In this document: in pieces, positions 42,880 through 56,271 of the stretch
Numbering within the stretch: the first letter of the stretch is position 1
How the letters are laid out: each line of letters begins with the position of its first letter
Assembly (NCBI GenBank): GCA_044225155.1
Contig: JBGAJB010000001.1
Coordinates: 1 to 60,238 of the forward strand
Source of the DNA: Phycisphaerae bacterium
GTDB taxonomy: Bacteria; Planctomycetota; Phycisphaerae; UBA1845; Fen-1342
Length of the DNA: 60,238 nucleotides
Reading direction: 5' to 3'
Made by a program: the position numbers and the translations under genes
Notes under the pieces: generated by a model
Databases searched by the model: none
The model's input: only the letters and a program-made list of their open reading frames with translations
Told to the model about the DNA's origin: nothing

Positions 42880-44536
42880 ATGCGCCGCATAGGCTTTTCG
42901 GCTCATCGGGCGAATCCGCCGCTCCGCGCGGCCGCGACGGACCCCGGGGCCAAGCACGGACGGACGGGCGTGTACGCGAAACCAGTTGCGAGGTCCTTGG
43001 GATCGGCGAATCGCGATGCGCGGCCGGTCAGCGAACCGAAGTTGGCGATGATCGGCGGCTTCGTCGATTTCATCATCCTGCTGCTGGTGCTGCGCAGTTA
43101 CTTTCTGCCGCTGTTCATCATCCCGACCGGTTCGATGGCCGAAACGCTCTGCGGCGAATATTCACCCAACGTCTGCCCGAACTGCGGGAAAGAGTATCAG
43201 GCCGGGTTTCACACTCCGCAGGGTCCTCCGCTCGTGCAGTGTCCGAACTGCCGGTGGCTTCAGGAGACGGCCCCCGGAAAGACGCAGCGCGCCGAGCTTC
43301 ATTCCCGCGCCGGCGACCGCATCGCCGTGCATGGCTGGACCTACGACGTCGGCGGCATGTTCGGCCCGCAGCGCTGGGACGTTGTCGTCTTCAAGAACCC
43401 GAACAATCCCGACGAGAACTACATCAAGCGTTTGCTGGGCCTGCCGGGCGAGACGCTCGAAATCATCGATGGCGATCTCTTTGTGACGCCCAAGGGCGCG
43501 CCGGAAGCGCATGTTGCCCGCAAGACGCGCGCGGCACAGGAATCGCTCTGGTTCCCGTATTACGACCACGACTACATTCCCGCCCACGCCTCGCCGACGT
43601 ACGCGATCGCCCGTCCGGCGCCATCAGCCGCGCTGGGCAGCGCCGGCCGGGACGAAGGCGTGGAAGAATCTGAATCAACGCACGATCGTTTTTGATGGCG
43701 CGGGCGCGGCACGCGAAGAAATCCGATTTGTCACCGGCGCGCCGGATCAACCGCCGATGATCGATGACCTGTACGCCTACAACGGCGCATTTCCGCCTGA
43801 GCTTTGCTCGCGCGTTTCTGATGTGCGCGTCGGCGCGGACGCCACGGTCGGGGCAGGCGCGGGTCCGATCGAACTCTCCGTGAGCAAGGACGATTCCCGG
43901 TTCGTCGCGAGCTTCTTCGCCGACGGCCGGATCATGCTGGAGCGGGCGGCCCGCGATGGATCGAATCGCGAAAAATGGGCCGAGACGAAACTCGACGCGC
44001 CGCTGCGCAGCGCCCGGCTGGCCATCGGACACGCTGACTACCAAGTGGTCGTAGAAGTGGATAACCGCGTCGTCCTCGTTTCGCCGCCTGACAAGTACAC
44101 CATCTCGGCCGACGAAGCGCGCCGCCTCGCGACGGCCGGCCGCGCTCCAGCCGAGATCTCGATCGCCGCGTCGGACTTGCGCGCCGCGTTCTCCCATGTG
44201 CGCGTGGATCGGGACATCTACTACACACAGGCTCAAACGCCGTCGCATCAGCCGGGACACGCCACCATGGGCCACCCGCTGAAGCTGCGCGACGACGCCT
44301 ATTTCGTTTGCGGCGACAACAGCCCGAACAGCCTCGACGGCCGTTGTTGGGAAGAGGGCATGCTGGGCGGGCACCTGCGTGAGAAATACCAGAAGGGCGA
44401 ATACGACCTGGGCACCGTGCCGGCCAACCAACTGCTGGGCCGCGCATTCCTCGTGTATTGGCCGGGATTCATGCCGCTCCTGCCGAATTCGCAGGGCGTG
44501 GTCCCCGACGCGGGCCGTGTGCGATGGATCCACTGA
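42880..44536 (+). pseudogene. Signal peptidase I paralogue 1 with zinc-ribbon and large insertions, frame shift around 43599-43636 (or assembly indel)
   Basis: The N-terminal part is in frame 1 (IIPTGSMAETL, CPNCG..CPNC, NYIKRLLGLPGE). The C-terminal part is in frame 2 (RWAAPAGTKAWKNL...GDNSPNSLDGR...). Together they are colinear with the intact paralogue 44524-46074. The start is uncertain (42880, 42970 or 43048). Confidence 0.75.
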
Positions 44537-46074
44537 CGCCGGTGACGGCTCCGCCTCCCTTGTCGGAAGCCGCCGTCGCGGAAGCATCGGCAGCGCAGGA
44601 AGCGACCGAATCACAGCCGCACCTGCCGCTGCATCAGCATGTCATCGAGTCCGTGCAGACCGTGCTCACGGCCATGATCCTGGCGTTCGTCTTCCGCGCG
44701 TTCTTCATCGAGCCCTTCATCATTCCGACCGGCTCGATGGCCGAGGGGCTTTGCGGCGCGCACCGGGATTACGTTTGCCCAGCGTGCGGCTGGGAGTACG
44801 CCGTCGGCGATGTGCCATCCGGCGGCCCGCCCACCGAGCCGCCGACATGTCCCAATTGCCACCGCCGCGCCGATCCCGAAAAAGAAGCCGGAATTCCAAA
44901 GGCCGGGGATCGCATCCTCGTTCACAAATGGCCGTTCGAGCTGAGCAGTTGGCTGGGGCCGCATCGCTGGGACGTGATCGTTTTTCGCGACCCGGCCAAC
45001 CCGGAAGAGAACTACATCAAGCGGCTGGTCGGGCTGCCGGGGGAATCGGTCGAAATCGTCGACGGCGACGTCTATATCAACGGCGAGATTGCACGCAAGC
45101 CCGCGGCCGCACAGAACGCCCTTTGGTTTGTCGTCTACGACCAGAACCACGCGCGCTCCACACTCGCCGACGACGCTCCGACTCCCTGGATCGCGGCGGA
45201 TGAGTCGCCGCCGTCGCTGGGCTGGTCCGATCTGGATGAGCGCGTAGTTAAGTATCACGGCCCCGACGACGCACCGCGGTCCATCCGCTTCGATCCGATT
45301 CATTCGCGCTATTACTTGCGCGATGTGTACGGCTACAACGTGAACGCCCCTGATACGCTCGTCGGCGATGTGCGCCTTTCCGCCGAAATTCACTGGGACT
45401 CCGGCGAGGGCGAACTCGCGTGGGAATTGGTGCGCGGCGACGATGTGTTTACCCTGCGGCTCGCTGCGGACGGCGCAGTCACGGTCACGCGAATCGCCGG
45501 AGGAGACGACCACCCCTCGCCGCGCTTCTCACTCGTCGGCCGTCTCCCGTATTCGCTTCAAGGGCGCACCACGGCCGTGCGATTCGCACACGTGGACTAT
45601 CGCGTCTGGGTGGAAATTGACGGCCAGATCCTCTTGTCGACGACACCCGGGCAATATGAGCCGGATCTGCAAGCGCTACGACACATGACGCGCAGCGCTC
45701 CGGTCGGGCTGCGCGTGACGGCGCGGAAATTTGACGGCGAACTGCGGGACCTGAGGATCGATCGGGACGTGCATTACACGCGAACGAGCGTATCCTCCCA
45801 GCGGGCGGCGGCCGGCGAGCCGTTCCAGTTGGGGCCGGACTCGTTCTTCGTTTTGGGCGACAACAGCCCCAACAGTCACGATGGCCGAGAGTGGTACAAA
45901 CTGGACACACATTTGATGGCGGAAGAGGCTGCCGGGCGCTATCAGCGCGGGACGGTCAGGCGCGACCAGATTGTCGGGCAGGCGTTCTTCGTTTATCTTC
46001 CGGGGTTGATGCCCAGCGAGGCGGCAAGCGGGCTGCACATTCCGGATCTCGGTAGGCTGCGGTTCATTCGCTGA
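44524..46074 (+). CDS. lepB: Signal peptidase I paralogue 2 (zinc-ribbon insertion, ~250-aa insertion between conserved boxes)
   Basis: The ATG overlaps the stop of paralogue 1 (ATGGATCCACTGA). The catalytic boxes are IIPTGSMAEGL (Ser), NYIKRLVGLPGE (Lys) and GDNSPNSHDGR. The zinc ribbon CPACG...CPNC lies at 44776-44859. Confidence 0.85.
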   Translation: MDPLTPVTAPPPLSEAAVAEASAAQEATESQPHLPLHQHVIESVQTVLTAMILAFVFRAFFIEPFIIPTGSMAEGLCGAHRDYVCPACGWEYAVGDVPSGGPPTEPPTCPNCHRRADPEKEAGIPKAGDRILVHKWPFELSSWLGPHRWDVIVFRDPANPEENYIKRLVGLPGESVEIVDGDVYINGEIARKPAAAQNALWFVVYDQNHARSTLADDAPTPWIAADESPPSLGWSDLDERVVKYHGPDDAPRSIRFDPIHSRYYLRDVYGYNVNAPDTLVGDVRLSAEIHWDSGEGELAWELVRGDDVFTLRLAADGAVTVTRIAGGDDHPSPRFSLVGRLPYSLQGRTTAVRFAHVDYRVWVEIDGQILLSTTPGQYEPDLQALRHMTRSAPVGLRVTARKFDGELRDLRIDRDVHYTRTSVSSQRAAAGEPFQLGPDSFFVLGDNSPNSHDGREWYKLDTHLMAEEAAGRYQRGTVRRDQIVGQAFFVYLPGLMPSEAASGLHIPDLGRLRFIR

Positions 46075-46299
46075 GAGCGCGCTTGTCCACAAAAATCTAC
46101 CGAGAATCCAGATTCACGTTATCACGCTTTCAGAAGCAGAAGGCGCGATTCGGAGCAAGCGGGAACGAGATCGCTGAGGTTGCAACACATTGCGTCCAAA
46201 GGTGTTATGAAAATGCGCTTGCCGCGTTAGGGCGCCATGAAGGATTCGTAAAGGCTGTCGTGGGTGGGGAATTTCGCCAACATCAACAAGTTATCCACA

Positions 46300-47058
46300 A
46301 TGCTGCTTGAAGCCAAAGACCTCGTGAAAAAGTACGGCGACCGAACGGTCGTCGACCGGGTTTCATTCGAAATCCACGAGGGCGAAATCATCGGCTTGCT
46401 CGGCCCCAACGGGGCGGGCAAGACGACCAGCTTCCGCATCACGGTCGGGATGATCACGCCCGAGGGCGGGCGCGTCCGTTTTCTGGGGCGCGACATCACG
46501 TCCATGCCCATGTACAAGCGCGCTCGGTGCGGCATCGGCTATCTTTCGCAGGAACCCAGCATTTTCCGCCGCCTCACCGTCGAACAGAACCTGATGGCCG
46601 TCGCCGAGACTCTCAAGCTCAGCTCTGCGCAGCGCGCGGCGCGCATCGACGAGTTGCTGACGCAATTCGGGCTGCAGGTCGTGCGAAAAAGCATGGCCAG
46701 CCTTGTTTCCGGCGGCGAGCGGCGCAAGCTCGAGATCGCACGCGCCCTGGTAACCAATCCACGCCTGATCCTGCTCGACGAGCCCTTCAGCGGCGTCGAT
46801 CCGAAGGCGGTCGAGGACCTCCGCCACGAGATTCAACGGCTCCGCACGGTGGGCATCACGATTCTCCTCACCGACCACAATGTGCACGAGACGCTGAAAG
46901 TCACTGATCGCAGCTATGTGATTCACGAAGGGCACGTCATCTGCTCCGGCACGCCGCACGAAATCATCAATGATCCGCGCGTGCGCGAGACCTATCTCGG
47001 CAATACCTTCCGCGGCGACGAGTTCGCGGGCGCCGCATCTTCCACGGCCGACAAGTAG
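46300..47058 (+). CDS. lptB: LPS export ABC transporter ATP-binding protein
   Basis: MLLEAKDLVKKYG..., Walker A GPNGAGKTT, YLSQEPSIFR, signature SGGERRKLEIARAL and Walker B LILLDEP match the LptB pattern. Confidence 0.88.
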   Translation: MLLEAKDLVKKYGDRTVVDRVSFEIHEGEIIGLLGPNGAGKTTSFRITVGMITPEGGRVRFLGRDITSMPMYKRARCGIGYLSQEPSIFRRLTVEQNLMAVAETLKLSSAQRAARIDELLTQFGLQVVRKSMASLVSGGERRKLEIARALVTNPRLILLDEPFSGVDPKAVEDLRHEIQRLRTVGITILLTDHNVHETLKVTDRSYVIHEGHVICSGTPHEIINDPRVRETYLGNTFRGDEFAGAASSTADK

Positions 47059-47553: not shown

Positions 47554-49359
47554 ATGTATTTCGCAACGCGGGTCGCACTGATCGGACTGCCGCTCTGGGG
47601 CCTATATGCCGCCACCGTGCGCGCGGACGAGCTTTCGCCGAATGACGCCCTGGCGCGTCTAACTGAGGGCAATGCTCGTTTTGTGGACGGCCGCATGACG
47701 TTTCCCAACTCCGACGAGCAGCGGCGGGAAGAAACGCTGAAGGCGCAGCATCCCTTTGCGGTAGTTCTCACCTGTTCGGACTCGCGCGTCCCCGTCGAGT
47801 ACGTTTTTGATCAGGGCATCGGCGATGTGTTCACGATCCGCGTGGCCGGCAACGTGTCCGATACCGACGAGATTGGCACGATCGAGTACGGCGTCGAGCA
47901 TCTCGAAGCGCCGCTGCTGGTCGTCATGGGCCATAGCTCCTGCGGCGCGGTAACCGCGGTCGTAAAGGGCACCAAGCTCGGCGGCGAGCTGCCGGGACTG
48001 GTCGACAACATTCGTCCGGCCGTGCGCGCCGTGCGGCAGCGCACGCCGCGCCCCACCGGCGATGCACTCATCGCCGAAGCGATTAAGGCCAATGTCTTTC
48101 AGAGCATGAGCGACCTGTTCCACAACAGCGAGATCGTGCGCGAGCGCGTGCAGCACGATCAGCTTAAAGTCGTCGGCGCGATCTACGATCTCTCCAGCGG
48201 CAAAGTCGAGTGGCTCGGCACGCATCCGGAGCAGAAAGCGCTGCTGAAGCCCGGGAAGGACGAGAGCAAGCCCGCAGCTGCCGCGACTCCCGTCAAGCCG
48301 ATGAGCACGAGCGACGAAAAGCCGGCCGCGAATATGCGCGAAGAGAAGCCGGGCGGCGCGCCCAAGCCCAAGTCGTCGACCGGCCAAGGACACGGCGGCA
48401 CGATGAACGATGACAGCTCAAGCGAGCACGGGCCCTTCATGAGCGATCCGACGGCAATGGACGAGCACGCCCAGCCCGCCAACGACGAGCCAAAGACCGC
48501 GGGCGGTCATGCCAAGAGCAGCGACGACAAGTCGAAGATGGAGCCGGCAGCCGAGAAACACAGCAAGATGGACGACGATGCGAAGACCGGGGAAATGAAG
48601 AAGCCCGCCAAGTCGATGGAAAAACACGACGGGCCGGCGCATGACTCAAACAACAAGCCGGCTGCCGCGAAGAAGTCGACCGGCGCCGACGAGGACAACA
48701 ATGGCCCGACGGCCGGCGAAGCGTTTGCCCGCCTGAAGGACGGCAACATCCGCTATTCGACCGGAGCGCCGCAGCACCCGCACCTCAACGACGCGCGGCG
48801 AAATGAAACCAGCAGCGGCCAGAAGCCGTTCGCGACGGTCCTTTGCTGCAGCGATTCGCGCGTTCCGCCCGAGATCGTCTTCGATCAGGGCATCGGCGAT
48901 CTGTTCATCGTGCGCGTCGCGGGTAACGTGGCGGACGGCGACGAAATCGGCTCCGCCGAATACGCCGTCGGCCATTTGAATACCCCGGTGCTGCTCGTCC
49001 TCGGACATCGCTCCTGCGGGGCGGTGACGGCCGTGGTGAAGAACGCAACCGTCCACGGCAGCATTCCGAAGCTGGTCGACAACATCGGTCCGGCTGTTCA
49101 GCAGGTGAAGTGGACGAACGGCAACCTGGCCGGGCCCGATCTTATCGCGGCCGCGATCAAGTCCAATGTCTGGCGCAGCGTGGAAGACATCCTGCGCCGC
49201 AGCCCTGAAGTGCGCGAGCGCGTGGAAGCCGGAAAGCTGCTGATCGTGGGCGGCGTCTACGATCTCGAATCGGGTCGAGTCGAGTGGCTCGGCACGCACC
49301 CGGAAGAGAAGATGATCGTTGGGGACGAACAGAATCGGTCGGGCGAGCCGAAAAAATAA
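47554..49359 (+). CDS. Secreted tandem beta-carbonic anhydrase fusion (two CA domains joined by a long low-complexity linker)
   Basis: A signal peptide is present. Domain 1 has CSDSRVPVE...GHSSCGAV and domain 2 has CSDSRVPPE...GHRSCGAV. A linker of about 150 aa rich in K/P/D/E/A (about 48230-48700) joins them. Confidence 0.9.
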   Translation: MYFATRVALIGLPLWGLYAATVRADELSPNDALARLTEGNARFVDGRMTFPNSDEQRREETLKAQHPFAVVLTCSDSRVPVEYVFDQGIGDVFTIRVAGNVSDTDEIGTIEYGVEHLEAPLLVVMGHSSCGAVTAVVKGTKLGGELPGLVDNIRPAVRAVRQRTPRPTGDALIAEAIKANVFQSMSDLFHNSEIVRERVQHDQLKVVGAIYDLSSGKVEWLGTHPEQKALLKPGKDESKPAAAATPVKPMSTSDEKPAANMREEKPGGAPKPKSSTGQGHGGTMNDDSSSEHGPFMSDPTAMDEHAQPANDEPKTAGGHAKSSDDKSKMEPAAEKHSKMDDDAKTGEMKKPAKSMEKHDGPAHDSNNKPAAAKKSTGADEDNNGPTAGEAFARLKDGNIRYSTGAPQHPHLNDARRNETSSGQKPFATVLCCSDSRVPPEIVFDQGIGDLFIVRVAGNVADGDEIGSAEYAVGHLNTPVLLVLGHRSCGAVTAVVKNATVHGSIPKLVDNIGPAVQQVKWTNGNLAGPDLIAAAIKSNVWRSVEDILRRSPEVRERVEAGKLLIVGGVYDLESGRVEWLGTHPEEKMIVGDEQNRSGEPKK

Positions 49360-49528
49360 GAGGGCCACGCCGAGCAAGTGCAGTTCCCAGAGCGGCATCG
49401 GTGGGAAACCTGCCGATACTGCTTCTCAAATTTGCGCGTTGCGGCCCTCTAGTAGCCGAGTTTGCTTTCGCGACATGCACCCGCCAATGTCGCGCGAACG
49501 CAATTCGCGCGATCTAGAAAACTGCACC

Positions 49529-49548
49529 GGAAATTCCGACGAATTTCC
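49529..49548. promoter_or_regulatory. Perfect 8-4-8 palindrome (candidate operator) upstream of the MauE-like gene
   Basis: GGAAATTC-CGAC-GAATTTCC is immediately followed by CCTCC, a G9 run (49554-49562) and an AT-rich TATATAGTAT box. Confidence 0.35.
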
Positions 49549-49636
49549 CCTCCGGGGGGGGGTTGTCGTATATAGTATCTGATAGCCTATCCTGTTCTGC
49601 TCGTTGCGCCGTTCCTGGAGCGTTTGGGAATCTGCC

Positions 49637-50074
49637 ATGAAATGGCAGCTAATCCTGCCCTTCCTAGCTTCGGTTGCCACGCGGTCGCTGGTCCCGGGGA
49701 CGGAAGCGAAAACCATTGAGTATCTTCGTGCGTTCTTTCAGATTCCGTCGGAAGATGCCGCAATCCTGGCTGCGGCGAGCCTTCAAATAGAAGCCTTGGC
49801 CGCTGCATTCCTGCTATGGCCGCGCACGTTCTGGCTTGGATGTATCATCGTGACAGGCTTGGCAACAGCCTACGCTATCATGCACGCATTCGCGCTGCTC
49901 GTGGGCGATGCAGCGCCATGTCCATGTGGGGGCTTGAACACTGCTGCTTCGCCCGTTATCGCTCATCTTCTGATGGGAGCTTTTTGCATAACAATGACAG
50001 TAATTGCGACGCGGCTCGCGCTCGCGCCGCCGAGGAAAAATCGATTTCAAGGAGAACCTCCGTGCGTTTCGTGA
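49637..50074 (+). CDS. MauE/DoxX-like redox-associated membrane protein
   Basis: TM helices carry the segment ILAAASLQIEALAAAFLLWP...HAFALLVGDAAPCPCGGL, which resembles the MauE family CGC(F)G region. The composition is AT-richer than the surroundings. Confidence 0.55.
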   Translation: MKWQLILPFLASVATRSLVPGTEAKTIEYLRAFFQIPSEDAAILAAASLQIEALAAAFLLWPRTFWLGCIIVTGLATAYAIMHAFALLVGDAAPCPCGGLNTAASPVIAHLLMGAFCITMTVIATRLALAPPRKNRFQGEPPCVS

Positions 50075-50250
50075 CTCAAATTCTCGCGACAGGTTTATTG
50101 GTTGGTGCCGCTTTTTCTTCAATCATCGCAGATCATGACTGCAAAAAGAATAAGATCTGTTCAACGTCGAGCAAAGTATGTACGGGCGGCGGAATCTGCA
50201 CCTATTGCTCTGGCGTTTGCGTGTACGACGTCTGCCCGTCGTCCTGCTAA
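50062..50250 (+). CDS. Small secreted cysteine-rich peptide (62 aa precursor, 8 Cys in the ~39-aa mature part)
   Basis: AAGGAG (50049-50054) lies 7 nt upstream of GTG 50062. The product is MRFVTQILATGLLVGAAFSSIIA|DHDCKKNKICSTSSKVCTGGGICTYCSGVCVYDVCPSSC. It overlaps the upstream gene by 13 nt and is hidden in the track inside the 144-aa ORF 49816-50250. Confidence 0.5.
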   Translation: MRFVTQILATGLLVGAAFSSIIADHDCKKNKICSTSSKVCTGGGICTYCSGVCVYDVCPSSC

Positions 50251-50259
50251 ATATGGAGC

Positions 50260-51315
50260 ATGTCGATGTTTACTACTCTGACAGCCTTTGTCATCGGCAC
50301 TTCGGGAATCAATCCCTCCGCGATGGCCCAAATCTTCTCACACCGCCTCGCCGTTCTCGATCGCCTTGTTATCCAAGTTGAAATGCACGCCTACATCGCC
50401 CCATTAGACGCCAGTCCGCTGGATCTGTCGAGCTGGGGCGAGGCCTTTGATCCCGGGGAAGGTACTGTCGGGCAACTCGAGATTGTCAGACCTTGCGCGC
50501 GGCTCGACGTGTTCGCTGCGGGAGGCACTGATCCCGCCGTATTTGCGTTTCGCCCATCTGGCGTTATCCTGCAGGCGCGCGGTCGAGGCAGCACCGGCAA
50601 GTCAGTTTATGTATCGTTCGAAAATCCGCCGGAATACGATAGCTTACCTAGCACTCCCCTGTTTCAAGTCTTTGATATTCAGGTTCATGAGAGCTATGCG
50701 GCGGGGCTCAATATCGAGCGCCTCCTCCGCGACCCATCATGCAGATTGAGTGGTGTGAACGAGAACCTAAACACCTACACCGCAGACCTGCGTTTGGAGA
50801 AAGATTACGGTACGTGGCTTGAACAATACGAGTTCGACTTGAGCGACAATGGCACGCCTCAACGATTTCATATGACGCGCCGAGCGGAGGACGGATCCTT
50901 CACGTTTGACCGAGAGATGACGACGGTCGCCACGCTAGAGTTGGGCGGCGCCGAGTTGATCAGCGACGCCGTGTTCTTTACGACGAATTCGGTTGTCGAT
51001 CACTATGGAGTCCATCGAGTGACTGTGTGTGCCGCAAGCGTCAATCCGGCGCTGACGAAAGATGATGTCTCGCTTGTTCCGCCCAAGGTCGACTCTGTGA
51101 TCTGGACGCGAGGAGCTGATTTCTCGGAGTCCAAGGTGGAGTATGGCCCGGACGGAAAACCCATCGCTTCCGCGCGACCGTCCTCGGACTCGCGCCGAAT
51201 GGCGGCGCCCATTGCGGCCCTTGGCGGCGCCGTGGCCGCTCTCGGGTTGGGATTAGCCACTTGGAGAACGCGGCGCGGGAGAGCGACCACAATGCGAGAC
51301 GATGGCGTGCGCTAA
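50260..51315 (+). CDS. Secreted, C-terminally anchored protein of unknown function
   Basis: TGGAG lies upstream of ATG 50260. An N-terminal signal-like segment (..GINPSAMAQ) and a beta-rich body are followed by a C-terminal TM helix plus basic tail (AAPIAALGGAVAALGLGLATWRTRRGR). Confidence 0.6.
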   Translation: MSMFTTLTAFVIGTSGINPSAMAQIFSHRLAVLDRLVIQVEMHAYIAPLDASPLDLSSWGEAFDPGEGTVGQLEIVRPCARLDVFAAGGTDPAVFAFRPSGVILQARGRGSTGKSVYVSFENPPEYDSLPSTPLFQVFDIQVHESYAAGLNIERLLRDPSCRLSGVNENLNTYTADLRLEKDYGTWLEQYEFDLSDNGTPQRFHMTRRAEDGSFTFDREMTTVATLELGGAELISDAVFFTTNSVVDHYGVHRVTVCAASVNPALTKDDVSLVPPKVDSVIWTRGADFSESKVEYGPDGKPIASARPSSDSRRMAAPIAALGGAVAALGLGLATWRTRRGRATTMRDDGVR

Positions 51316-51374
51316 GATCGCATCGGACGTCACTTGGATTGTCAGTTCGCGGGATCTGCCGTAGTTTTCTCGTC

Positions 51375-51785
51375 GTGCCAGCCACGCCGCGCAACTGCTG
51401 GATCGAAAGCCGCGCCCTGCTGGATAATGGTCAGCGCGAATTCCTCATCTTGCGCCGCGGACCGATGGATGAGGCGCTCTGGGATTTTCCGGGCGGAAAG
51501 CTGGAGGGCCGCGAATCCCCCGAAGCCGGGCTCAGGCGCGTGCTGCGCGACGAGCTGCAGATCGAGGTCACTCTTAACGTGGGCCAGCCGCCATTCGTGC
51601 ACAACTATGGCGACCGCTCAATCACGTATCGCTACTACATGTGCGCCGTCGCACGTGGTGCGCCGCGGACGGCGCCGAGTACCGAATTGCGCTGGATTCC
51701 GCTCGGCCAGCTTTGCGAATACGTGTTCGACCCGGCCGCACAGCAGGTGGTACAGTGGCTGCTGCAAAACCGCATGAGCGAATAG
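51375..51785 (+). CDS. NUDIX hydrolase (MutT-like)
   Basis: The Nudix box is GGKLEGRESPEAGLRRVLRDELQI. The start is uncertain; GTG 51375 avoids overlap with the preceding gene. Confidence 0.72.
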   Translation: MPATPRNCWIESRALLDNGQREFLILRRGPMDEALWDFPGGKLEGRESPEAGLRRVLRDELQIEVTLNVGQPPFVHNYGDRSITYRYYMCAVARGAPRTAPSTELRWIPLGQLCEYVFDPAAQQVVQWLLQNRMSE

Positions 51786-52092
51786 CGCCGGCATCGTTCC
51801 AAACATCCTGAAATCCTTGAAAACCGGCAGTGGGTCGGTTTGAACCGAGCCGCGACCGTGTGGGAGCGGGGATCGGAGAACCCTCGCGGGCTAGCTGAAA
51901 ATTGCTCTCCGTTTCTTCCTTTCTGACGGGCACGGCTCGGACAAGCGCAAACTGACCCACGATCGGAAAAACGCCCCCACGCGTCCGGCGGGGGAAACGC
52001 GGATACACTGCGGGATTGGAGATTCCGCGTCGGCCGGTGAGTGCGCGCGACGCGAAACAGACCGGGCAAGCTCGGGCGAGCAAGAGTCACAC

Positions 52093-53304
52093 ATGCGACG
52101 GTACAGCGAATCCGAAATCCTCCAGATGTACGACGAGTTGAGCATCCACGAACTCGGCGCGCTGGCGTTCGAGCGGCTGCAGCAGATGCACCCAGAGCCC
52201 TTTCGCACCTACGTCGTCGACCGCAACATCAACTACAGCAACGTCTGCACCGCCAAGTGCATCTTCTGCAACTTTAAGGCCGATCCGGGCGACAAAGACG
52301 CCTACATCTTGAGCTTCGAGCAGATCGGCAAAAAGATCGAGGAATTGATCGACATCGGCGGCACGCAGATTCTCATGCAGGGCGGCCTCGTGCCGGACGC
52401 CGATGAGCCGCATGGCCACGGCCTGCCGTTTGAGTGGTATCTCGATCTACTGCGCTTCATTCGCAAGAACTACCCGTCGATCCACATCCACGCGTTCAGT
52501 CCGCCGGAGATCTGGGCGATGCACCAGGTCTTCCGCATGCCGCTGCGCGAGGTGCTGCTCCGCCTGCGCGATGCGGGACTCGCCACCATTCCCGGCGGAG
52601 GCGGCGAAATCCTCGTCGATCGCGTGCGAACGAAAATCGCGCAGGGAAAGACGCTCGCGCACGAGTGGATGGCCGTCATGCGCGAGGCCCACCAGATCGG
52701 CATGAAGACCAGCGCCACGATGGTCATCGGCCATATCGAGACGCTCGAAGATCGCATCGCACACATGCGTCTGATTCGCGACCTTCAGGACGAAACCGGC
52801 GGCTTCACGGCCTTTATCCACTGGACCTTCCAGCCCGAAGGCACGCCGCTGGGACGCTGGAAGCGCCTGCCGGAAGGCGACAACGGCCGCCGCCCGCGTC
52901 CCGACGGTCAGCATCTGCTGCTCGCCGACGCCCACGAATATCTGGTTTGGCTCGCGCTGGTTCGGCTCTATTTCGACAACGTGCCGAACATTCAATCGAG
53001 CTGGGTGACCATGGGGCCGAAGGTCGGGCAGCTTGCGCTCTTCTATGGCGCAAACGACATGGGCAGCGTGATGATGGAAGAAAACGTCGTCAGCCAGGCC
53101 GGCGCGTCATTCCGCCTCAGCGAGGACGAGATTCGCCGGCTCATCACGGACGCCGGATGGACACCGCAGCAGCGCGACCAGTATTACCGTCTGATCGACA
53201 CATCCGCCCAACGCCGTGCTCGCCTTCAAACGGCGCCGGTCTCACATGTCGCGCCGCATCAGCCGGCAGCCGTCGTCCCCCTGACCGTCAGCGGGACCGA
53301 GTGA
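52093..53304 (+). CDS. Futalosine-pathway radical SAM enzyme (MqnC/MqnE family, MqnC-like)
   Basis: TYVVDRNINYSNVCTAKCIFCNF provides the CxxxCxxC site. The CofH/MqnC-like core (ILMQGGL, HIHAFSPPEI, GGGGEIL) is present. Confidence 0.82.
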   Translation: MRRYSESEILQMYDELSIHELGALAFERLQQMHPEPFRTYVVDRNINYSNVCTAKCIFCNFKADPGDKDAYILSFEQIGKKIEELIDIGGTQILMQGGLVPDADEPHGHGLPFEWYLDLLRFIRKNYPSIHIHAFSPPEIWAMHQVFRMPLREVLLRLRDAGLATIPGGGGEILVDRVRTKIAQGKTLAHEWMAVMREAHQIGMKTSATMVIGHIETLEDRIAHMRLIRDLQDETGGFTAFIHWTFQPEGTPLGRWKRLPEGDNGRRPRPDGQHLLLADAHEYLVWLALVRLYFDNVPNIQSSWVTMGPKVGQLALFYGANDMGSVMMEENVVSQAGASFRLSEDEIRRLITDAGWTPQQRDQYYRLIDTSAQRRARLQTAPVSHVAPHQPAAVVPLTVSGTE

Positions 53305-53447
53305 GGCGTGTTCATTCCTTGGAAGTAGGTCCGAGAACTCTTGGCGCCTGAAATCTTTGTTTGGAACTGCCTAGATATTCAGCTATATTCGCCGTTGCGG
53401 GCGTGGGAAGCACCCGCGTATTCGTCCTATCCACACTTGGGGGCAAG

Positions 53448-56271
53448 ATGAGAAGGGTCATTTCGTTAGCCGCATTCTCGCTGATTTCGTTCACACCGAT
53501 CGTTGTTGCCGGCGGAAAGTCGCAGAGCAACGAGCTGTCGGGCACGGCTGTAAGTCGGGAACCCGAAGTCACCTACATGTCGGTGAGCAATTCCGCGCAG
53601 CCCGAATGGCAGCTCCTGCCATCGGCCGCACAGTCGCTGCTATCGTCGATTCCCGGGACGCACGCACAGCTCGTCGACGGGCGCGTACGCATCCTGTACG
53701 GCATGCCGATGGGCTCCGCGGACAGCGCGGAAGAGGCCGCCGGCAATTGGCTGGCGCAGCATGCTCAGGCGTTCGGCGCGGGCGAAATTGAACTGCGCGA
53801 GCGCTTCAACGCGATCGCCGGCAATGGAAAGTTCACCGTCTTCGGATACGACCAGTACATCGACGGCCTGCCGGTGGAATACGGCGTGGCCCGCGTGCTC
53901 GTGAACAACGACCTGGGCAACCAGGTGGTATATGCGGCCGCAACTCTGGCGCAGGTTCCCGCTGAAATTCAGCCGGCGGCGATCTCAGCCGAATCGGCGG
54001 TCGACATCGCCCGCACGCAGCGCCCCGACCTGCCGACCTGGTCGGCCGCGAGCGGCGCCTGGTACTTCGGCGACGGAGCGTGGACGACGGCATACCGTGT
54101 CTGGAAGGTCGTCGGCGAGCAGCCTGATCTGACCCGCCGCGAGAAGTACACTTTTTTTGTGGATGCCGTGAACGGCAGCGTCATTCACACTCGTGATGAC
54201 GTGTTGCATGCGAACGTGATCGGCAACGTGCAGGCGAATGCCTCCCCGGGCACTCTGCCTGATATCGCCAGCAATCCGCCCACCCTCCTGCCCGTGACCG
54301 ACCTGTCAGTTGCGGTGACCGGCGGCAGCTCGGCTTACAGCGATCGCACGGGCGCGTTCAACATCACGAACGCGGGCACGACGAATGTGACCGTGACGAC
54401 CAACGCCAGCTCCGGCCACTGGGTGAACGTAAACAACAATTCCACGGGTGGCGAGATTTCCGCCAGCGGCACGTTCACGCCCGGCGTTTCGGGCACGCTG
54501 ACATTGAATCCCGCCATCGGAAAATCTGACGGCCCAGGCCAACGGACTGATCCAGACCGCCGTCGTCCACAACTATGTCAAGGACCGCACGACGTGGACC
54601 GGCATGGATTTCGTCATGACCTGCAACGTCAACATCGCGTCGACTTGCAACGCGTTCTATGACGGCACGATCAACTTCTACTTATCCGGCGGCGGATGCG
54701 TGAACACCGCCTACGCGTCGGTCGTCCACCATGAATATGGCCACGGCATTGTGAATAACCTTGGCCTGCCGCAAGGCGGCTTCGGCGAAGGCTATGGCGA
54801 TGTCACCGGCATGCTGATCAATGACAGCCCGATCGTCGGGCCGAACTTCTTCACGAGCGGCGGCAACATTCGCAATCCGAATACCTCGAATCGCCAATAC
54901 CCCTGCAGCGGAGAAGTACACTTCTGCGGCGAGCTGCTGGGCGGCGTCTGGTGGGATATCCGCGAACAGATGGGAATCAAATACGGAGCCGGCGCGCTGG
55001 AACTGACGCGCCAACTGGAAATTGACTGGTCGCTCATTACGACCGGCGGCACGGGAGCCGATTCCAGCAACTCCGCCCATCCCGGCACGGCCATCGAAGT
55101 CCTCACGGTGAACGATGACGATGGCAACCTGAACAACGGCACTCCGGACTACACAGAGATCTGCAGCGGCTTCTCGCAGCACAGCATCTCGTGCCCGCCA
55201 ATTTCGCCGCTGACGTTTACCTACCCGGAAGGCCTGCCGACCATCCTCGTGCCGAATGCGCCGAATTCGTTCCGCGTGCTCGTCACGACGAATACGGGCG
55301 TGACTCCGACGCCCGGAACCGGGACGCTCAGCTACTCAATCGACGGCAACCCGGCCTACACGACCGTTCCCATGGCGGTGTTGGGTACCAATGACTATCG
55401 CGCGACGATTCCGGCCCTGCCGTGCGGGTCGCACGTTCGTTTCTATGTTTCCTCGGGCTCGAGCGCAGGCTCGGTCAGTGATCCGTTGAACGCCCCCACC
55501 AGTGGGGTCAACATGGCTGACTCGAGCGGCGGCCTGCTCGTTCCGTTCGAGGACGACTTCGAAACAAACAAGGGCTGGACCGTCGGCGGAAGCGGCGATA
55601 CCGCGACGACGGGCATCTGGACGCGCGTTGATCCGGTCGGCACCGCCGCCCAGCCGGAAGACGATGTCGATGCGAACGGCACGCTCTGCTTCGTGACCGG
55701 TCAGGGAGCGGTCGGCGGCGGCCTCGGCGACAACGACGTGGACGGCGGCAAGACCACGCTCACGTCGCCGGTCATCGATCTGAGCGCCGCAATCGCGCCG
55801 CGCGTCGGCTACTGGCGCTGGTATTCGAACGACAAGGGCGCAGCGCCGAACGCCGATACCTTCCGGGTTGAGATCACCAACAACGGGACGACGTGGGTCA
55901 ACGCCGAGACAGTCGGTCCGACCGGTGCGGAAACGAGTGGCGGCTGGATTTACCACGAGTTCGCCGTGAGCACGTTTGTCACGCCGACGGCCACCGTGCG
56001 GGTGCGCTTTATCGCTGAGGACGCCGGCAGCGGCTCGATCGTTGAAGCCGGAGTCGACGACTTCAAGGTGACCGCCTCGGATTGCGCCGTCGCCTGCACC
56101 GGCGACCTCGACGGCGATCACGGCCGCGGTCTGGCGGACCTGGGTATCGTGCTGGCCAATTTCGGCCTGCCGAACCGGACGCCGCAGCAGGGCGACTTTG
56201 ACGGCGACACGGACGTCGACCTCACCGACCTGGGCGTCATGCTCTCGGTTTACGGCATCCCGTGTCCGTAA
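53448..56271 (+). pseudogene. Secreted zinc metalloprotease (thermolysin/fungalysin-like clan MA, HEYGH) with dockerin-like tail, frame shift at an A4 run (or assembly indel)
   Basis: Track ORFs 53361-54662 and 54604-56271 are two halves of one protein. Frame 0 ends ...TLTLNPAIG at AAAA 54521-54524. Frame 1 continues (E)NLTAQANGLIQTAVVHNYVKDRTTW...VVHHEYGHG...GEGYGD. The tail is CTGDLDGD...GDFDGDTDVDLTDLG..IPCP. Confidence 0.8.

What the first reader, a model, noticed from the sequence alone, without database searches (positions are those of the whole stretch)
49604..51315. AT-richer three-gene islet: MauE-like membrane protein, hidden 8-Cys secreted peptide and anchored secreted protein
This block is visibly more AT-rich than its flanks (low to mid 50s % GC by eye against mid to upper 60s) and uses codons such as TTA, AAA and AAT that are rare elsewhere. 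It holds three tightly packed same-strand genes.

- Gene 1 (49637-50074) is a membrane protein. Its helices and APCPCGG segment resemble the MauE/DoxX redox family. In methylamine dehydrogenase systems MauE is needed to mature a small, heavily disulfide-bonded subunit.
- Gene 2 (50062-50250) is a 62-aa ORF not listed separately in the track. It has a strong AAGGAG RBS, overlaps gene 1 by 13 nt, and has a clear signal peptide. The 39-aa mature peptide DHDCKKNKICSTSSKVCTGGGICTYCSGVCVYDVCPSSC contains 8 cysteines.
- Gene 3 (50260-51315) is a 351-aa secreted protein with a C-terminal TM anchor and no family I recognise.

I do not know this combination as a described system. It looks like a dedicated oxidative-folding, handling or immunity module for a disulfide-rich (bacteriocin- or knottin-like) peptide, possibly acquired horizontally.
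Basis: partly seen in the sequence, partly recalled or inferred. Interest (0 to 1): 0.8.

Follow-up and report, generated by a model that had tools for sequence, protein, structure and literature searches.

The report
MauE, cysteine-rich mini-protein, LolA-fold partner operon
A small AT-richer islet in a planctomycete chromosome carries a conserved, undescribed three-gene operon: a membrane disulfide-forming enzyme (MauE type), an exported cysteine-rich mini-protein that is probably its client, and a membrane-anchored protein with a LolA-like fold that almost always accompanies the mini-protein.

Summary

- **Composition:** GC is 0.51-0.58 in the islet against 0.62-0.66 in the flanks. GC3 is 0.56-0.64 against a host mean of 0.795 (z -5 to -8).
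- **Gene 1:** passes the Pfam MauE threshold. It has a periplasmic CPC motif and the conserved TM2 glutamate.
- **Gene 2:** the 62-aa ORF is real. Its homologues sit in the same position in other metagenomic loci. Its mature part is the most conserved stretch of the module.
- **Gene 3:** has no sequence family. With a 60-sequence alignment it folds at pLDDT 90 into a LolA/LolB-superfamily fold, followed by a C-terminal membrane anchor.

An exhaustive search found 72 clusters of gene 3 relatives. I examined 11 other members. Eight have a cysteine-rich ORF directly upstream and one more has a decayed remnant. Five of these also have a MauE with a CXC motif.

The family's usual mini-protein has 12 conserved cysteines. 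The window's copy is a shortened form: the N-terminal six-cysteine half plus two extra cysteines.

The module has lower GC3 than its neighbours in most host genomes examined and sits in a different context each time. It is best read as a self-contained accessory envelope operon. MauE oxidises its co-encoded client, and the client pairs with the tethered LolA-fold protein. The biological role is unknown.

The parts
49364..49396 (.). Left copy of an imperfect 33-nt direct repeat that brackets the islet. It lies just after the carbonic anhydrase stop codon.
   Evidence: Family D1 (24 of 33 identical). Between the two intergenic flanks, this score was reached in 4 of 500 mononucleotide shuffles. 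The independent contig L002 begins at 49363.
49637..50074 (+). Gene 1: a divergent MauE-family membrane protein (145 aa). It is a putative DsbB-like, quinone-linked thiol oxidase.
   Evidence: Pfam PF07291 at 35.0 bits against a gathering score of 27. Three strong hydrophobic segments plus a weaker N-terminal one; loop charges place the CPC loop outside and the basic C-tail inside. Conserved with 4 module-linked homologues.
49919..49927 (+). [quoted passage not shown]
   Evidence: Translates to CPC. C95 and C97 are invariant in alignment A7. The CXC is required for DsbB-replacing activity in two MauE proteins (bioRxiv 10.64898/2026.03.05.709764).
50049..50054 (+). AAGGAG ribosome-binding site of gene 2, lying inside the 3' end of gene 1.
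   Evidence: Sequence. It lies 7 nt before the GTG at 50062.
50062..50130 (+). Gene 2, predicted Sec signal peptide (residues 1-23, MRFVTQILATGLLVGAAFSSIIA).
   Evidence: Hydrophobic segment at residues 1-19. The start aligns with the ATG start of the L001 homologue. The cleavage site is inferred from the small residues at positions -3 and -1 (I and A); no predictor was run.
50131..50250 (+). Gene 2, mature 39-aa mini-protein with 8 Cys, plus the stop codon. It is the N-terminal half of a family with 12 conserved Cys, with two clade-specific Cys added.
50255..50258 (+). GGAG ribosome-binding site of gene 3.
   Evidence: Sequence. It lies 7 nt before the ATG at 50266.
50266..51315 (+). Gene 3: a 349-aa protein with a short N-terminal hydrophobic segment, a LolA-superfamily beta-rich domain of about 290 aa, and a C-terminal transmembrane anchor with a basic tail.
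   Evidence: AF2 with 60 sequences gives pLDDT 90.3 and pTM 0.82. Foldseek top hits are 3buu, 8cgm, 4z48, 8cm1 and 3wjt, at E 1.5e-6 to 4e-4. The family has 72 clusters. No Pfam hit.
51199..51261 (+). C-terminal membrane anchor of gene 3 (MAAPIAALGGAVAALGLGLAT), followed by WRTRRGR.
   Evidence: The segment is conserved in position across the family.
51381..51413 (.). Right copy of the imperfect 33-nt direct repeat, 66 nt after the gene 3 stop codon.

Best explanation
This is a self-contained accessory envelope operon of Planctomycetota-type bacteria.

**Shown:**
- The three genes are tightly packed on one strand. Gene 2 starts inside the end of gene 1.
- Gene 1 is a MauE-family membrane protein with its CPC motif in an outward-facing loop.
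- Gene 2 encodes a conserved, signal-peptide-bearing, cysteine-rich mini-protein.
- Gene 3 encodes a LolA-fold domain with a C-terminal membrane anchor.
- The mini-protein gene and gene 3 are linked in almost every relative examined, usually with MauE.

**Inferred:**
- The mini-protein is exported by Sec.
- Its 8 cysteines (12 in typical family members) are paired into disulfides by the co-produced MauE, which passes the electrons to a quinone. This may happen directly or through a DsbA-like protein encoded elsewhere.
- The folded mini-protein then binds the LolA-fold domain of gene 3. That domain is held on the outer face of the cytoplasmic membrane by its C-terminal anchor, so the two form a tethered pair.

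What the pair does is not known. The options are handling a hydrophobic ligand, acting as a ligand-receptor pair, or protection. The window's copy is a shortened version of the mini-protein, probably made by an in-frame deletion.
For: **Gene 1 as MauE**
- It passes the Pfam threshold.
- CXC, Glu52 and His83 are invariant in the 5 module MauEs.
- The loop carrying CPC has no Lys or Arg, while the C-tail has 4.
- Two MauE proteins replace DsbB in E. coli, and both need the CXC motif (bioRxiv 10.64898/2026.03.05.709764).

**Gene 2 as a real, constrained gene**
- Homologous ORFs lie in the same position in L001, L083-85, L086, L088, L090/91, L092/93, L094/95 and L097.
- Six N-module Cys are invariant in all 8 aligned sequences. 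Five of the six C-module Cys are conserved in all 7 full-length members; the sixth (C10) is missing in L090.
- Mature-part dN is 0.105 with dS saturated. dN is 0.51 for MauE and 0.41 for gene 3.

**Coupling**
- Gene 2 overlaps the end of gene 1 by 13-16 nt in the window, L001, L085 and L088.

**Gene 3**
- High-confidence LolA-superfamily fold.
- C-terminal anchor plus basic tail across the family.

**Linkage**
- Of 11 other gene 3 relatives examined, 8 have an intact or contig-cut Cys-rich ORF directly upstream and 1 has a decayed remnant. For 1 there is no DNA, and 1 has nothing upstream.
- The peptide and gene 3 persist where MauE has decayed (L092) or is replaced by an unrelated 4-TM protein (L094).
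- No fourth gene is shared between loci.
Against: - No experiment supports any step.
- No thioredoxin-fold partner is in the module. The preprint argues that MauE normally works through one.
- The residues after CXC are GG here, not the usual FG. TM1 has Arg where relatives have Lys.
- Binding between the mini-protein and gene 3 rests on gene linkage only. No complex model could be run.
- The N-terminal export signal of gene 3 is short and uncharged, so its outward-facing topology is inferred mainly from the basic tail after the C-terminal anchor.
- The window's mini-protein lacks the C-terminal half of the family domain and could be impaired.
- MauE is dispensable in at least two lineages.
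Confidence: 0.5

Rival explanations
1. Secreted antimicrobial peptide plus immunity. The mini-protein would be a disulfide-stabilised bacteriocin-like toxin released from the cell. MauE would fold it, and the anchored LolA-fold protein would protect the producer by capturing the toxin at its own membrane.
For: - The module behaves like an accessory cassette. It sits in a different context in each genome, GC3 is below the flanks in most hosts examined, and it shows frequent decay.
- The product is small, exported and disulfide-rich.
- MauE genes beside small precursor-like ORFs were flagged as candidate peptide natural-product clusters in Streptomyces (PMC7794033).
Against: - The module has no exporter or outer-membrane component, and a Sec signal alone only reaches the periplasm of a diderm.
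- There is no double-glycine leader.
- No bacteriocin, toxin or defence family hit was found in Pfam, NCBIfam or PADLOC.
- A 340-aa LolA-fold protein is not a known immunity type (my knowledge).
- The mature part of the mini-protein is the most conserved stretch of the module in the one pair measured.
Confidence: 0.2
2. Metal handling. The cysteines would be ligands for a soft metal such as Cu(I) or Zn. They would be kept or cycled in the thiol state, with MauE acting as a redox partner rather than forming structural disulfides.
For: - The family has a conserved CxxC (C4-x2-C5) and a C-terminal Cx4C (Cx3C in L085), plus a conserved His or Tyr before C1.
- One earlier study read MauE as a possible reductase, as cited in the preprint.
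Against: - The experimental evidence is that MauE replaces DsbB as an oxidase.
- No metal transporter, chaperone or regulator is linked in any locus.
- The Cys count is even in most members (12, or 8 here), as expected for full pairing into disulfides.
Confidence: 0.1
3. Decaying remnant in this genome. The family is functional elsewhere, but the window's copy, having lost the C-terminal half of the mini-protein, would be on its way to loss.
For: - The window's peptide lacks C7-C12 relative to all 7 full-length relatives.
- Other loci show decay of module parts.
Against: - All three ORFs are intact, with ribosome-binding sites.
- The deletion is in frame and leaves an even number of Cys.
- The retained part differs from L001 by dN of only 0.105.
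- The same sequence was assembled from a second sequencing run without any difference.
Confidence: 0.15
4. Coincidental neighbours. Gene 1 would be a general housekeeping MauE for the whole envelope, and the other two genes would be unrelated to it.
For: - MauE is proposed to be a generalist oxidase.
- Some relatives lack it.
Against: - The gene order and the start-stop overlap are conserved across relatives down to about 24% gene 3 identity, in unrelated contexts.
- The module MauE has the same atypical composition as its two partners.
- The word-indexed search of the 5.8-billion-sequence collection found no closer MauE.
Confidence: 0.05

Closest known systems
mauE-mauD-mauA of methylamine dehydrogenase clusters
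   Same: A MauE membrane protein is encoded next to a small exported protein with six disulfides that depends on it for maturation (bioRxiv 10.64898/2026.03.05.709764; van der Palen 1997 as cited in PMC7794033). The typical module mini-protein also has 12 Cys.
   Different: - There is no MauD (thioredoxin fold), MauB, MauG or other mau gene.
- The mini-protein has no match to any Pfam family. Trp is absent from the window and L001 peptides and is not conserved across the family, so a Trp-derived cofactor is unlikely (my inference).
- The partner is a LolA-fold anchored protein, not a beta-propeller heavy chain.
Substrate-dedicated Dsb operons, for example assT-dsbL-dsbI of uropathogenic E. coli (from my knowledge; not checked here)
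   Same: A membrane disulfide-generating enzyme is encoded in one operon with its specific periplasmic client.
   Different: That system has a DsbB paralogue plus a DsbA paralogue. Here the oxidase is a MauE and there is no thioredoxin-fold protein. The client is a mini-protein rather than an enzyme.
LolA/LolB superfamily (LolA, LolB, NE2245-type LolA-like proteins, DUF1329, RseB/MucB)
   Same: The predicted fold of gene 3 matches these structures: 3buu at E 1.5e-6 with target-normalised TM-score 0.59; 8cgm, 4z48, 8cm1 and 3wjt at E 3e-6 to 4e-4.
   Different: - There is no sequence-level match to any LolA-type Pfam model or PDB sequence.
- The domain is about 290 aa, against 180-220 aa in those proteins.
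- It is tethered by a C-terminal transmembrane helix rather than being soluble or lipid-anchored.
- It is linked to a cysteine-rich protein rather than to LolCDE.
Candidate peptide clusters with mauE in Streptomyces (decRiPPter, PMC7794033)
   Same: MauE homologues sit next to small precursor-like ORFs outside any mau cluster. That study suggested they modify the peptide.
   Different: These are a different phylum with different accompanying genes, and they are uncharacterised. No LolA-fold partner was reported in the passages read.

Membership tests
MauE (Pfam PF07291; DsbB-like disulfide-forming membrane protein) | Profile match above the curated threshold over most of the model | tested here: met
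   35.0 bits against a gathering score of 27, covering profile positions 10-124 of 128. Precomputed MauE hits are also recorded for the module homologues in L085, L088 and L090.
MauE (Pfam PF07291; DsbB-like disulfide-forming membrane protein) | CXC motif in the periplasmic loop between TM3 and TM4 | tested here: met
   C95-P-C97. The loop at residues 89-99 has no Lys or Arg, whereas the C-tail has 4, which places the loop outside. The topology comes from hydropathy and charge only.
MauE (Pfam PF07291; DsbB-like disulfide-forming membrane protein) | Conserved Glu in TM2 and Lys in TM1, proposed to hold the quinone | tested here: inconclusive
   Glu52 is invariant. At the TM1 position, 4 module homologues have Lys and the window has Arg16. 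Equivalence to the residues named in the preprint was judged by position, not by alignment to its proteins.
MauE (Pfam PF07291; DsbB-like disulfide-forming membrane protein) | Phe-Gly directly after CXC (highly conserved in 15,413 MauE sequences) | tested here: not met
   The window has CPC-GG, L001 CPC-LG and L085 CPC-LA. Only L088 has CRC-FG. The preprint describes this as typical, not as required for activity.
MauE (Pfam PF07291; DsbB-like disulfide-forming membrane protein) | Ability to replace DsbB, or to oxidise a client | not testable with these tools
   This needs complementation of E. coli lacking dsbB, as in the preprint.
LolA/LolB superfamily | Fold: an incomplete beta-barrel with helices | tested here: met
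   AF2 gives pLDDT 90.3 and pTM 0.82. The 8 PDB hits with E <= 0.001 are all LolA, LolB, LolA-like or DUF1329. The match is to a predicted model.
LolA/LolB superfamily | Sequence membership in a LolA-type family model | tested here: not met
   No Pfam or NCBIfam hit for gene 3. No LolA-type family appears among the hits of 60 family members at E <= 1. No PDB sequence hit.
LolA/LolB superfamily | Binding of acyl chains or another hydrophobic ligand | not testable with these tools
Methylamine dehydrogenase light chain (MauA) | Sequence match to the light-chain family | tested here: not met
   No Pfam family at E <= 1 for the window peptide. The longer homologues gave only chance-level hits to unrelated families, at E 0.16 and 0.4.
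Class II bacteriocins and known toxin or defence families | Double-glycine leader with a dedicated exporter, or a match to a known toxin, immunity or defence model | tested here: not met
   The leader is of the Sec type. No transporter is in any locus. No PADLOC, NCBIfam or Pfam hits.

The most novel reading that the evidence does not exclude
The module would be a new kind of periplasmic two-protein system restricted to planctomycete-like bacteria. A MauE oxidase would work directly on one co-translated client, with no thioredoxin-fold intermediary. The resulting six-disulfide mini-protein would be the specific ligand of a membrane-tethered LolA-fold receptor. This would be a use of the LolA fold for protein capture, as toxin-immunity or ligand-receptor, rather than lipid transport.
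Probability: 0.15. Interest if true: 0.75.

Novelty: new variant of a known kind. Interest (0 to 1): 0.55.

Why it matters
MauE was shown only in a 2026 preprint to act like DsbB, and its natural clients outside methylamine dehydrogenase are unknown. This module offers a compact natural test case: a MauE, one obvious client with 4-6 disulfides, and no thioredoxin-fold partner.

- It would let one ask directly whether a MauE can oxidise a substrate on its own.
- It defines two unnamed protein families: a 12-Cys exported mini-protein, and a C-terminally anchored LolA-fold protein.
- It gives both families a genomic association that can guide experiments in a phylum whose envelope biology is poorly known.

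The family is rare (72 clusters at 50% identity among about 15 billion proteins) and is known only from uncultured organisms. That limits its immediate reach.

Tried and rejected
- **Word-indexed protein searches.** For gene 3, the peptide and MauE these found only the window itself and one relative. The family appeared only with the exhaustive HMMER search.
- **Collection scans for gene 3.** Scans of species-representative genomes, JGI metagenomes (twice) and viral contigs all found nothing. One attempt failed because the alignment was too diverse.
- **Empty-site test.** I fetched 80 loci around the neighbouring MqnC gene from related genomes. None shares the carbonic anhydrase / NUDIX arrangement, so the test was impossible.
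- **AF2 of gene 3 with two sequences.** This failed, with pLDDT 32.
- **Solved structures.** No match to the sequence of the peptide or of gene 3.
- **Known families for the peptides.** None in Pfam, NCBIfam or PADLOC.
- **Kazal-like spacing.** The N-module Cys spacing loosely recalls Kazal inhibitors (from memory), but no Pfam family of any kind, Kazal included, matched, so I dropped the idea.
- **Lipoprotein reading.** Rejected. Lipobox-like LVAC and IGAC occur in two signal peptides only, and in the middle of the hydrophobic core.
- **PEP-CTERM reading of the gene 3 tail.** Rejected. There is no PEP motif and no NCBIfam hit.
- **Conserved Cys near the MauE C-terminus.** This is a by-product of the overlapping start codon of gene 2 (ccR-TGc), not a functional residue.
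- **Promoter, terminator and RNA scans.** The promoter and terminator scan gave nothing above chance. There is no Rfam match in 45-56 kb.
- **Literature.** Searches for MauE with Planctomycetes, DoxX, LolA-like or cysteine-rich terms found no description of this combination.
Full report
**1.

The block 49.3-51.1 kb has a GC fraction of 0.51-0.58 in 300-nt windows. The flanks are 0.62-0.66. Third-position GC of the three genes is 0.568, 0.556 and 0.637. For 28 other ORFs of the window the mean is 0.795 and the sd 0.031, so the three genes lie 5 to 8 sd below the host.

- TTA makes up 7.7% of Leu codons against 0.9% in host genes.
- AAA makes up 62% of Lys codons against 28%.
- AAT makes up 67% of Asn codons against 33%.

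Gene 3 more probably starts at 50266, because GGAG lies 7 nt upstream of that ATG and a public gene call gives 349 aa. An independent assembly from another sequencing run (L002) is identical to window 49363-51860 and lists the 62-aa ORF as a gene.

**2. Host and setting**

- The neighbouring MqnC-type radical SAM protein is 79% identical to that of a Planctomycetota MAG. Nearly all of the 80 best matches are titled Planctomycetota, Planctomycetales or Phycisphaerae.
- The rest of the window is ordinary chromosome: DUF1501, citrate synthase, ParA, three signal peptidase I paralogues, an ABC ATPase and others.
- The islet lies between a double beta-carbonic anhydrase and a NUDIX hydrolase.
- Gene order around MqnC is not conserved in any of the 80 related loci, so no empty site could be found.
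- An imperfect 33-nt direct repeat brackets the islet (49364-49396 and 51381-51413; 24 of 33 identical). This score was reached in 4 of 500 shuffles of the two intergenic flanks. It is suggestive of an insertion scar and no more.

**3. Gene 1 is a MauE**

It scores 35.0 bits on Pfam MauE, where the gathering score is 27, over nearly the whole model.

A 2026 preprint reports the following (bioRxiv 10.64898/2026.03.05.709764):
- MauE from two phyla restores motility and alkaline phosphatase activity to E. coli lacking dsbB.
- Both cysteines of a CXC motif in the periplasmic loop between TM3 and TM4 are required.
- A Glu and a Lys in the first two helices are conserved near a docked quinone.
- MauE is expected to act through a thioredoxin-fold partner.

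In gene 1 the motif is C95-P-C97, in a loop with no basic residues, while the C-terminal tail has four. Cys95, Cys97, Glu52 and His83 are invariant among the five module-linked MauEs. The TM1 Lys is Arg in the window. The usual Phe-Gly after CXC is not kept here (GG).

This clade is remote from mainstream MauE. The word-indexed search found no other MauE at E <= 0.001.

**4. Gene 2 is a real, constrained gene, and a shortened one**

The closest relative (L001) has the same arrangement. Its 112-aa product aligns from the start codon through 58 residues at 69% identity.

| Comparison with L001 | dN | dS |
|---|---|---|
| Mature part of the peptide | 0.105 | saturated |
| MauE | 0.51 | 1.6 |
| Gene 3 | 0.41 | 2.4 |

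(All values.)

Cys-rich ORFs from seven further loci align with it.
- A signal peptide comes first, then a conserved His or Tyr one or two residues before C1.
- Six Cys form an N-terminal half: C-x5-C-x6-9-C-x5-13-C-x2-C-x8-C.
- Six more Cys form a C-terminal half that ends in a Cx4C (CxVPxC in most members).

The window's product stops after the N-terminal half. It has two extra Cys, which it shares with L001. Its tail PSSC matches L001's terminal PFGC.

In L001 the codons GTGTGT occur at both edges of the missing segment. This suggests an in-frame deletion at a short repeat (inference). There is no room for the missing part, because gene 3 starts 15 nt after the stop codon.

No known family matches these peptides.

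**5. Gene 3 is a membrane-anchored LolA-fold protein of an unnamed family**

- Word-indexed search found one relative. The exhaustive HMMER search found 72 clusters with E <= 0.001, mostly 320-370 aa and matching end to end.
- With 60 of them as the alignment, AF2 gave pLDDT 90.3 and pTM 0.82. With two sequences it had given 32.
- All eight PDB matches with E <= 0.001 are LolA, LolB, LolA-like or DUF1329 proteins. The best is 3buu, at E 1.5e-6 and target-normalised TM-score 0.59.
- There is no sequence-level match to any LolA-type family.
- The family shares three features: a short uncharged hydrophobic N-terminus; a conserved helix (RLxxLD) that opens the fold; and a C-terminal hydrophobic segment followed by Arg-rich residues. 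The basic tail argues that the domain faces the periplasm.

**6. The genes travel together**

| Gene 3 relative | Locus | What lies upstream |
|---|---|---|
| P0002 | L001 | MauE (CPC) + peptide |
| P0006 | L083/84/85 | MauE (CPC) + peptide, uncalled in two of three records |
| P0040 | L088 | MauE (CRC) + peptide |
| P0024 | L090/91 | MauE (CGC) + peptide |
| P0010 | no DNA held | MauE called next to gene 3 |
| P0016 | L086 | peptide; contig ends upstream |
| P0008 | L097 | C-terminal half of a peptide at the contig edge |
| P0047 | L092/93 | peptide + 66-aa MauE remnant without CXC |
| P0060 | L094/95 | peptide + 4-TM protein with no detectable MauE relationship |
| P0020 | L087 | only a start-less remnant of the peptide's C-terminal half |
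| P0068 | L096 (most distant examined, profile E 8e-7) | nothing |

- Gene 2 overlaps the end of gene 1 by 13-16 nt in four lineages.
- Flanking genes differ in every lineage, and no fourth gene recurs.
- The peptide and gene 3 therefore form the stable core, and MauE is a frequent but dispensable companion.

**7. The composition anomaly is seen in most hosts**

GC3 of the module lies below that of flanking genes in most other hosts examined.

| Locus | Module GC3 | Flank GC3 |
|---|---|---|
| L083 | 0.65-0.74 | 0.88-0.94 |
| L088 | 0.74-0.81 | 0.88-0.91 |
| L092 | 0.74-0.79 | 0.70-0.95 (six of seven flanking genes at 0.83 or more) |
| L094 | 0.55-0.60 | 0.77-0.79 |
| L001 | 0.69-0.77 | 0.75-0.89 |

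L090 and L086 show little or no difference. The pattern fits an accessory cassette that moves between genomes or stays weakly adapted in codon usage. On its own it does not date a transfer into this genome.

**8. Mechanism**

*Shown:* operon-like packing with start-stop overlap; MauE identity with an outward CXC; a conserved exported Cys-rich product; a LolA-fold anchored partner; conserved linkage.

*Inferred:*
- Sec export of the mini-protein.
- Formation of its four disulfides (six in typical relatives) by the co-produced MauE, with electrons passing to a quinone. This may be direct or through a DsbA-like protein encoded elsewhere.
- Docking of the folded mini-protein on the tethered LolA-fold domain.

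I put about 0.5 on this chain as a whole. Within it, I put about 0.65 on MauE serving this client and about 0.7 on a functional peptide-gene 3 pair.

The biological role is open. Rivals are toxin plus immunity (0.2), a decaying copy in this genome (0.15), metal handling (0.1) and coincidental neighbours (0.05). These are judged separately and overlap; for example, a decaying copy is compatible with the main reading for the family. No module protein matches a known toxin, inhibitor or defence family, and no exporter is linked.

**9. Comparison with what is known**

- The nearest analogue in logic is mauE-mauD-mauA, where MauE and MauD mature a small six-disulfide subunit. Here there is no MauD, no other mau gene, and the client is unrelated.
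- Dedicated Dsb operons such as assT-dsbL-dsbI (my knowledge) share the idea of an oxidase encoded with its client.
- MauE genes beside small ORFs were listed as uncharacterised candidate peptide clusters in Streptomyces (PMC7794033).
- I found no description of MauE with a LolA-fold protein and a Cys-rich mini-protein.

**10. Verdict**

This is a real and conserved module that I did not find described in the searched literature. It is a new variant of the substrate-dedicated oxidative-folding theme, built from a divergent MauE and two unnamed families. Interest is moderate to high for envelope and disulfide biology. It is limited by the family's rarity, by its occurrence only in uncultured organisms, and by the unknown role.

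Noticed in passing
window 49364-49396 and 51381-51413: An imperfect 33-nt direct repeat (24 of 33 identical) brackets the islet. Between the two intergenic flanks, this score was reached in 4 of 500 mononucleotide shuffles. It is a possible insertion scar.
   Followed up: partly
L002 (= window 49363-51860): A contig assembled from another sequencing run (SRR28480388) is identical to the window. It is only 2498 bp long, and its left end falls at the left repeat copy. This could reflect strain variation at the islet border.
   Followed up: partly
L083, L088, L092, L094, L001 (module against flanking genes): The module has lower third-position GC than its neighbours in most host genomes examined, not only in this window. 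L090 and L086 show little or no difference.
   Followed up: yes
L092 4393-4593; L087 1341-1502: Decay products of the module. L092 has a 66-aa MauE remnant that keeps only the first helix and lacks the CXC. L087 has a start-less remnant of the C-terminal half of the mini-protein, upstream of an intact gene 3 homologue.
   Followed up: yes
window 50056-50074 and the same site in L001, L085, L088: The MauE proteins end with a conserved Cys (PPCVS, APCAT, LPCSSN, TRCES). The TG of its TGC codon forms the last two bases of the ATG or GTG start codon of gene 2 in the other frame, so the conservation is a by-product of the overlap.
   Followed up: yes
window 50833-51027 (gene 3 residues about 190-254): This stretch (YEFDLSDNGTP...) matches six repeated stretches in an unrelated 1503-aa protein (P0075). 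Three family members give weak RHS-repeat hits in Pfam. It may be a YD-like beta-hairpin motif inside the LolA-like sheet.
   Followed up: no
window 47554-49359: A tandem double beta-carbonic anhydrase. Its two catalytic domains are joined by a low-complexity linker rich in Lys, Pro, Ala and Glu, of roughly 170 aa by my estimate. AT skew reaches 0.6 at 48.2-48.8 kb.
   Followed up: no
window 42880-46074: Three consecutive ORFs all hit signal peptidase I (Peptidase_S26), and the first two overlap. This may be a paralogue array or one mis-split gene.
   Followed up: no
window 51261-51785: The NUDIX ORF, as listed, overlaps the end of gene 3 by 55 nt. The NUDIX domain starts only at residue 52, so the true start is probably downstream, and the right repeat copy is probably intergenic.
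   Followed up: no
window 46100-46400 and 53300-53600: Two further short GC dips (0.52 and 0.54) lie at gene boundaries. Neither was examined.
   Followed up: no
L097 1425-1676: The gene downstream of the module in this AT-richer contig carries CFKCHGPD. From my knowledge this is a planctomycete-type cytochrome motif, which hints that this relative is also from the Planctomycetota-Verrucomicrobiota group.
   Followed up: no
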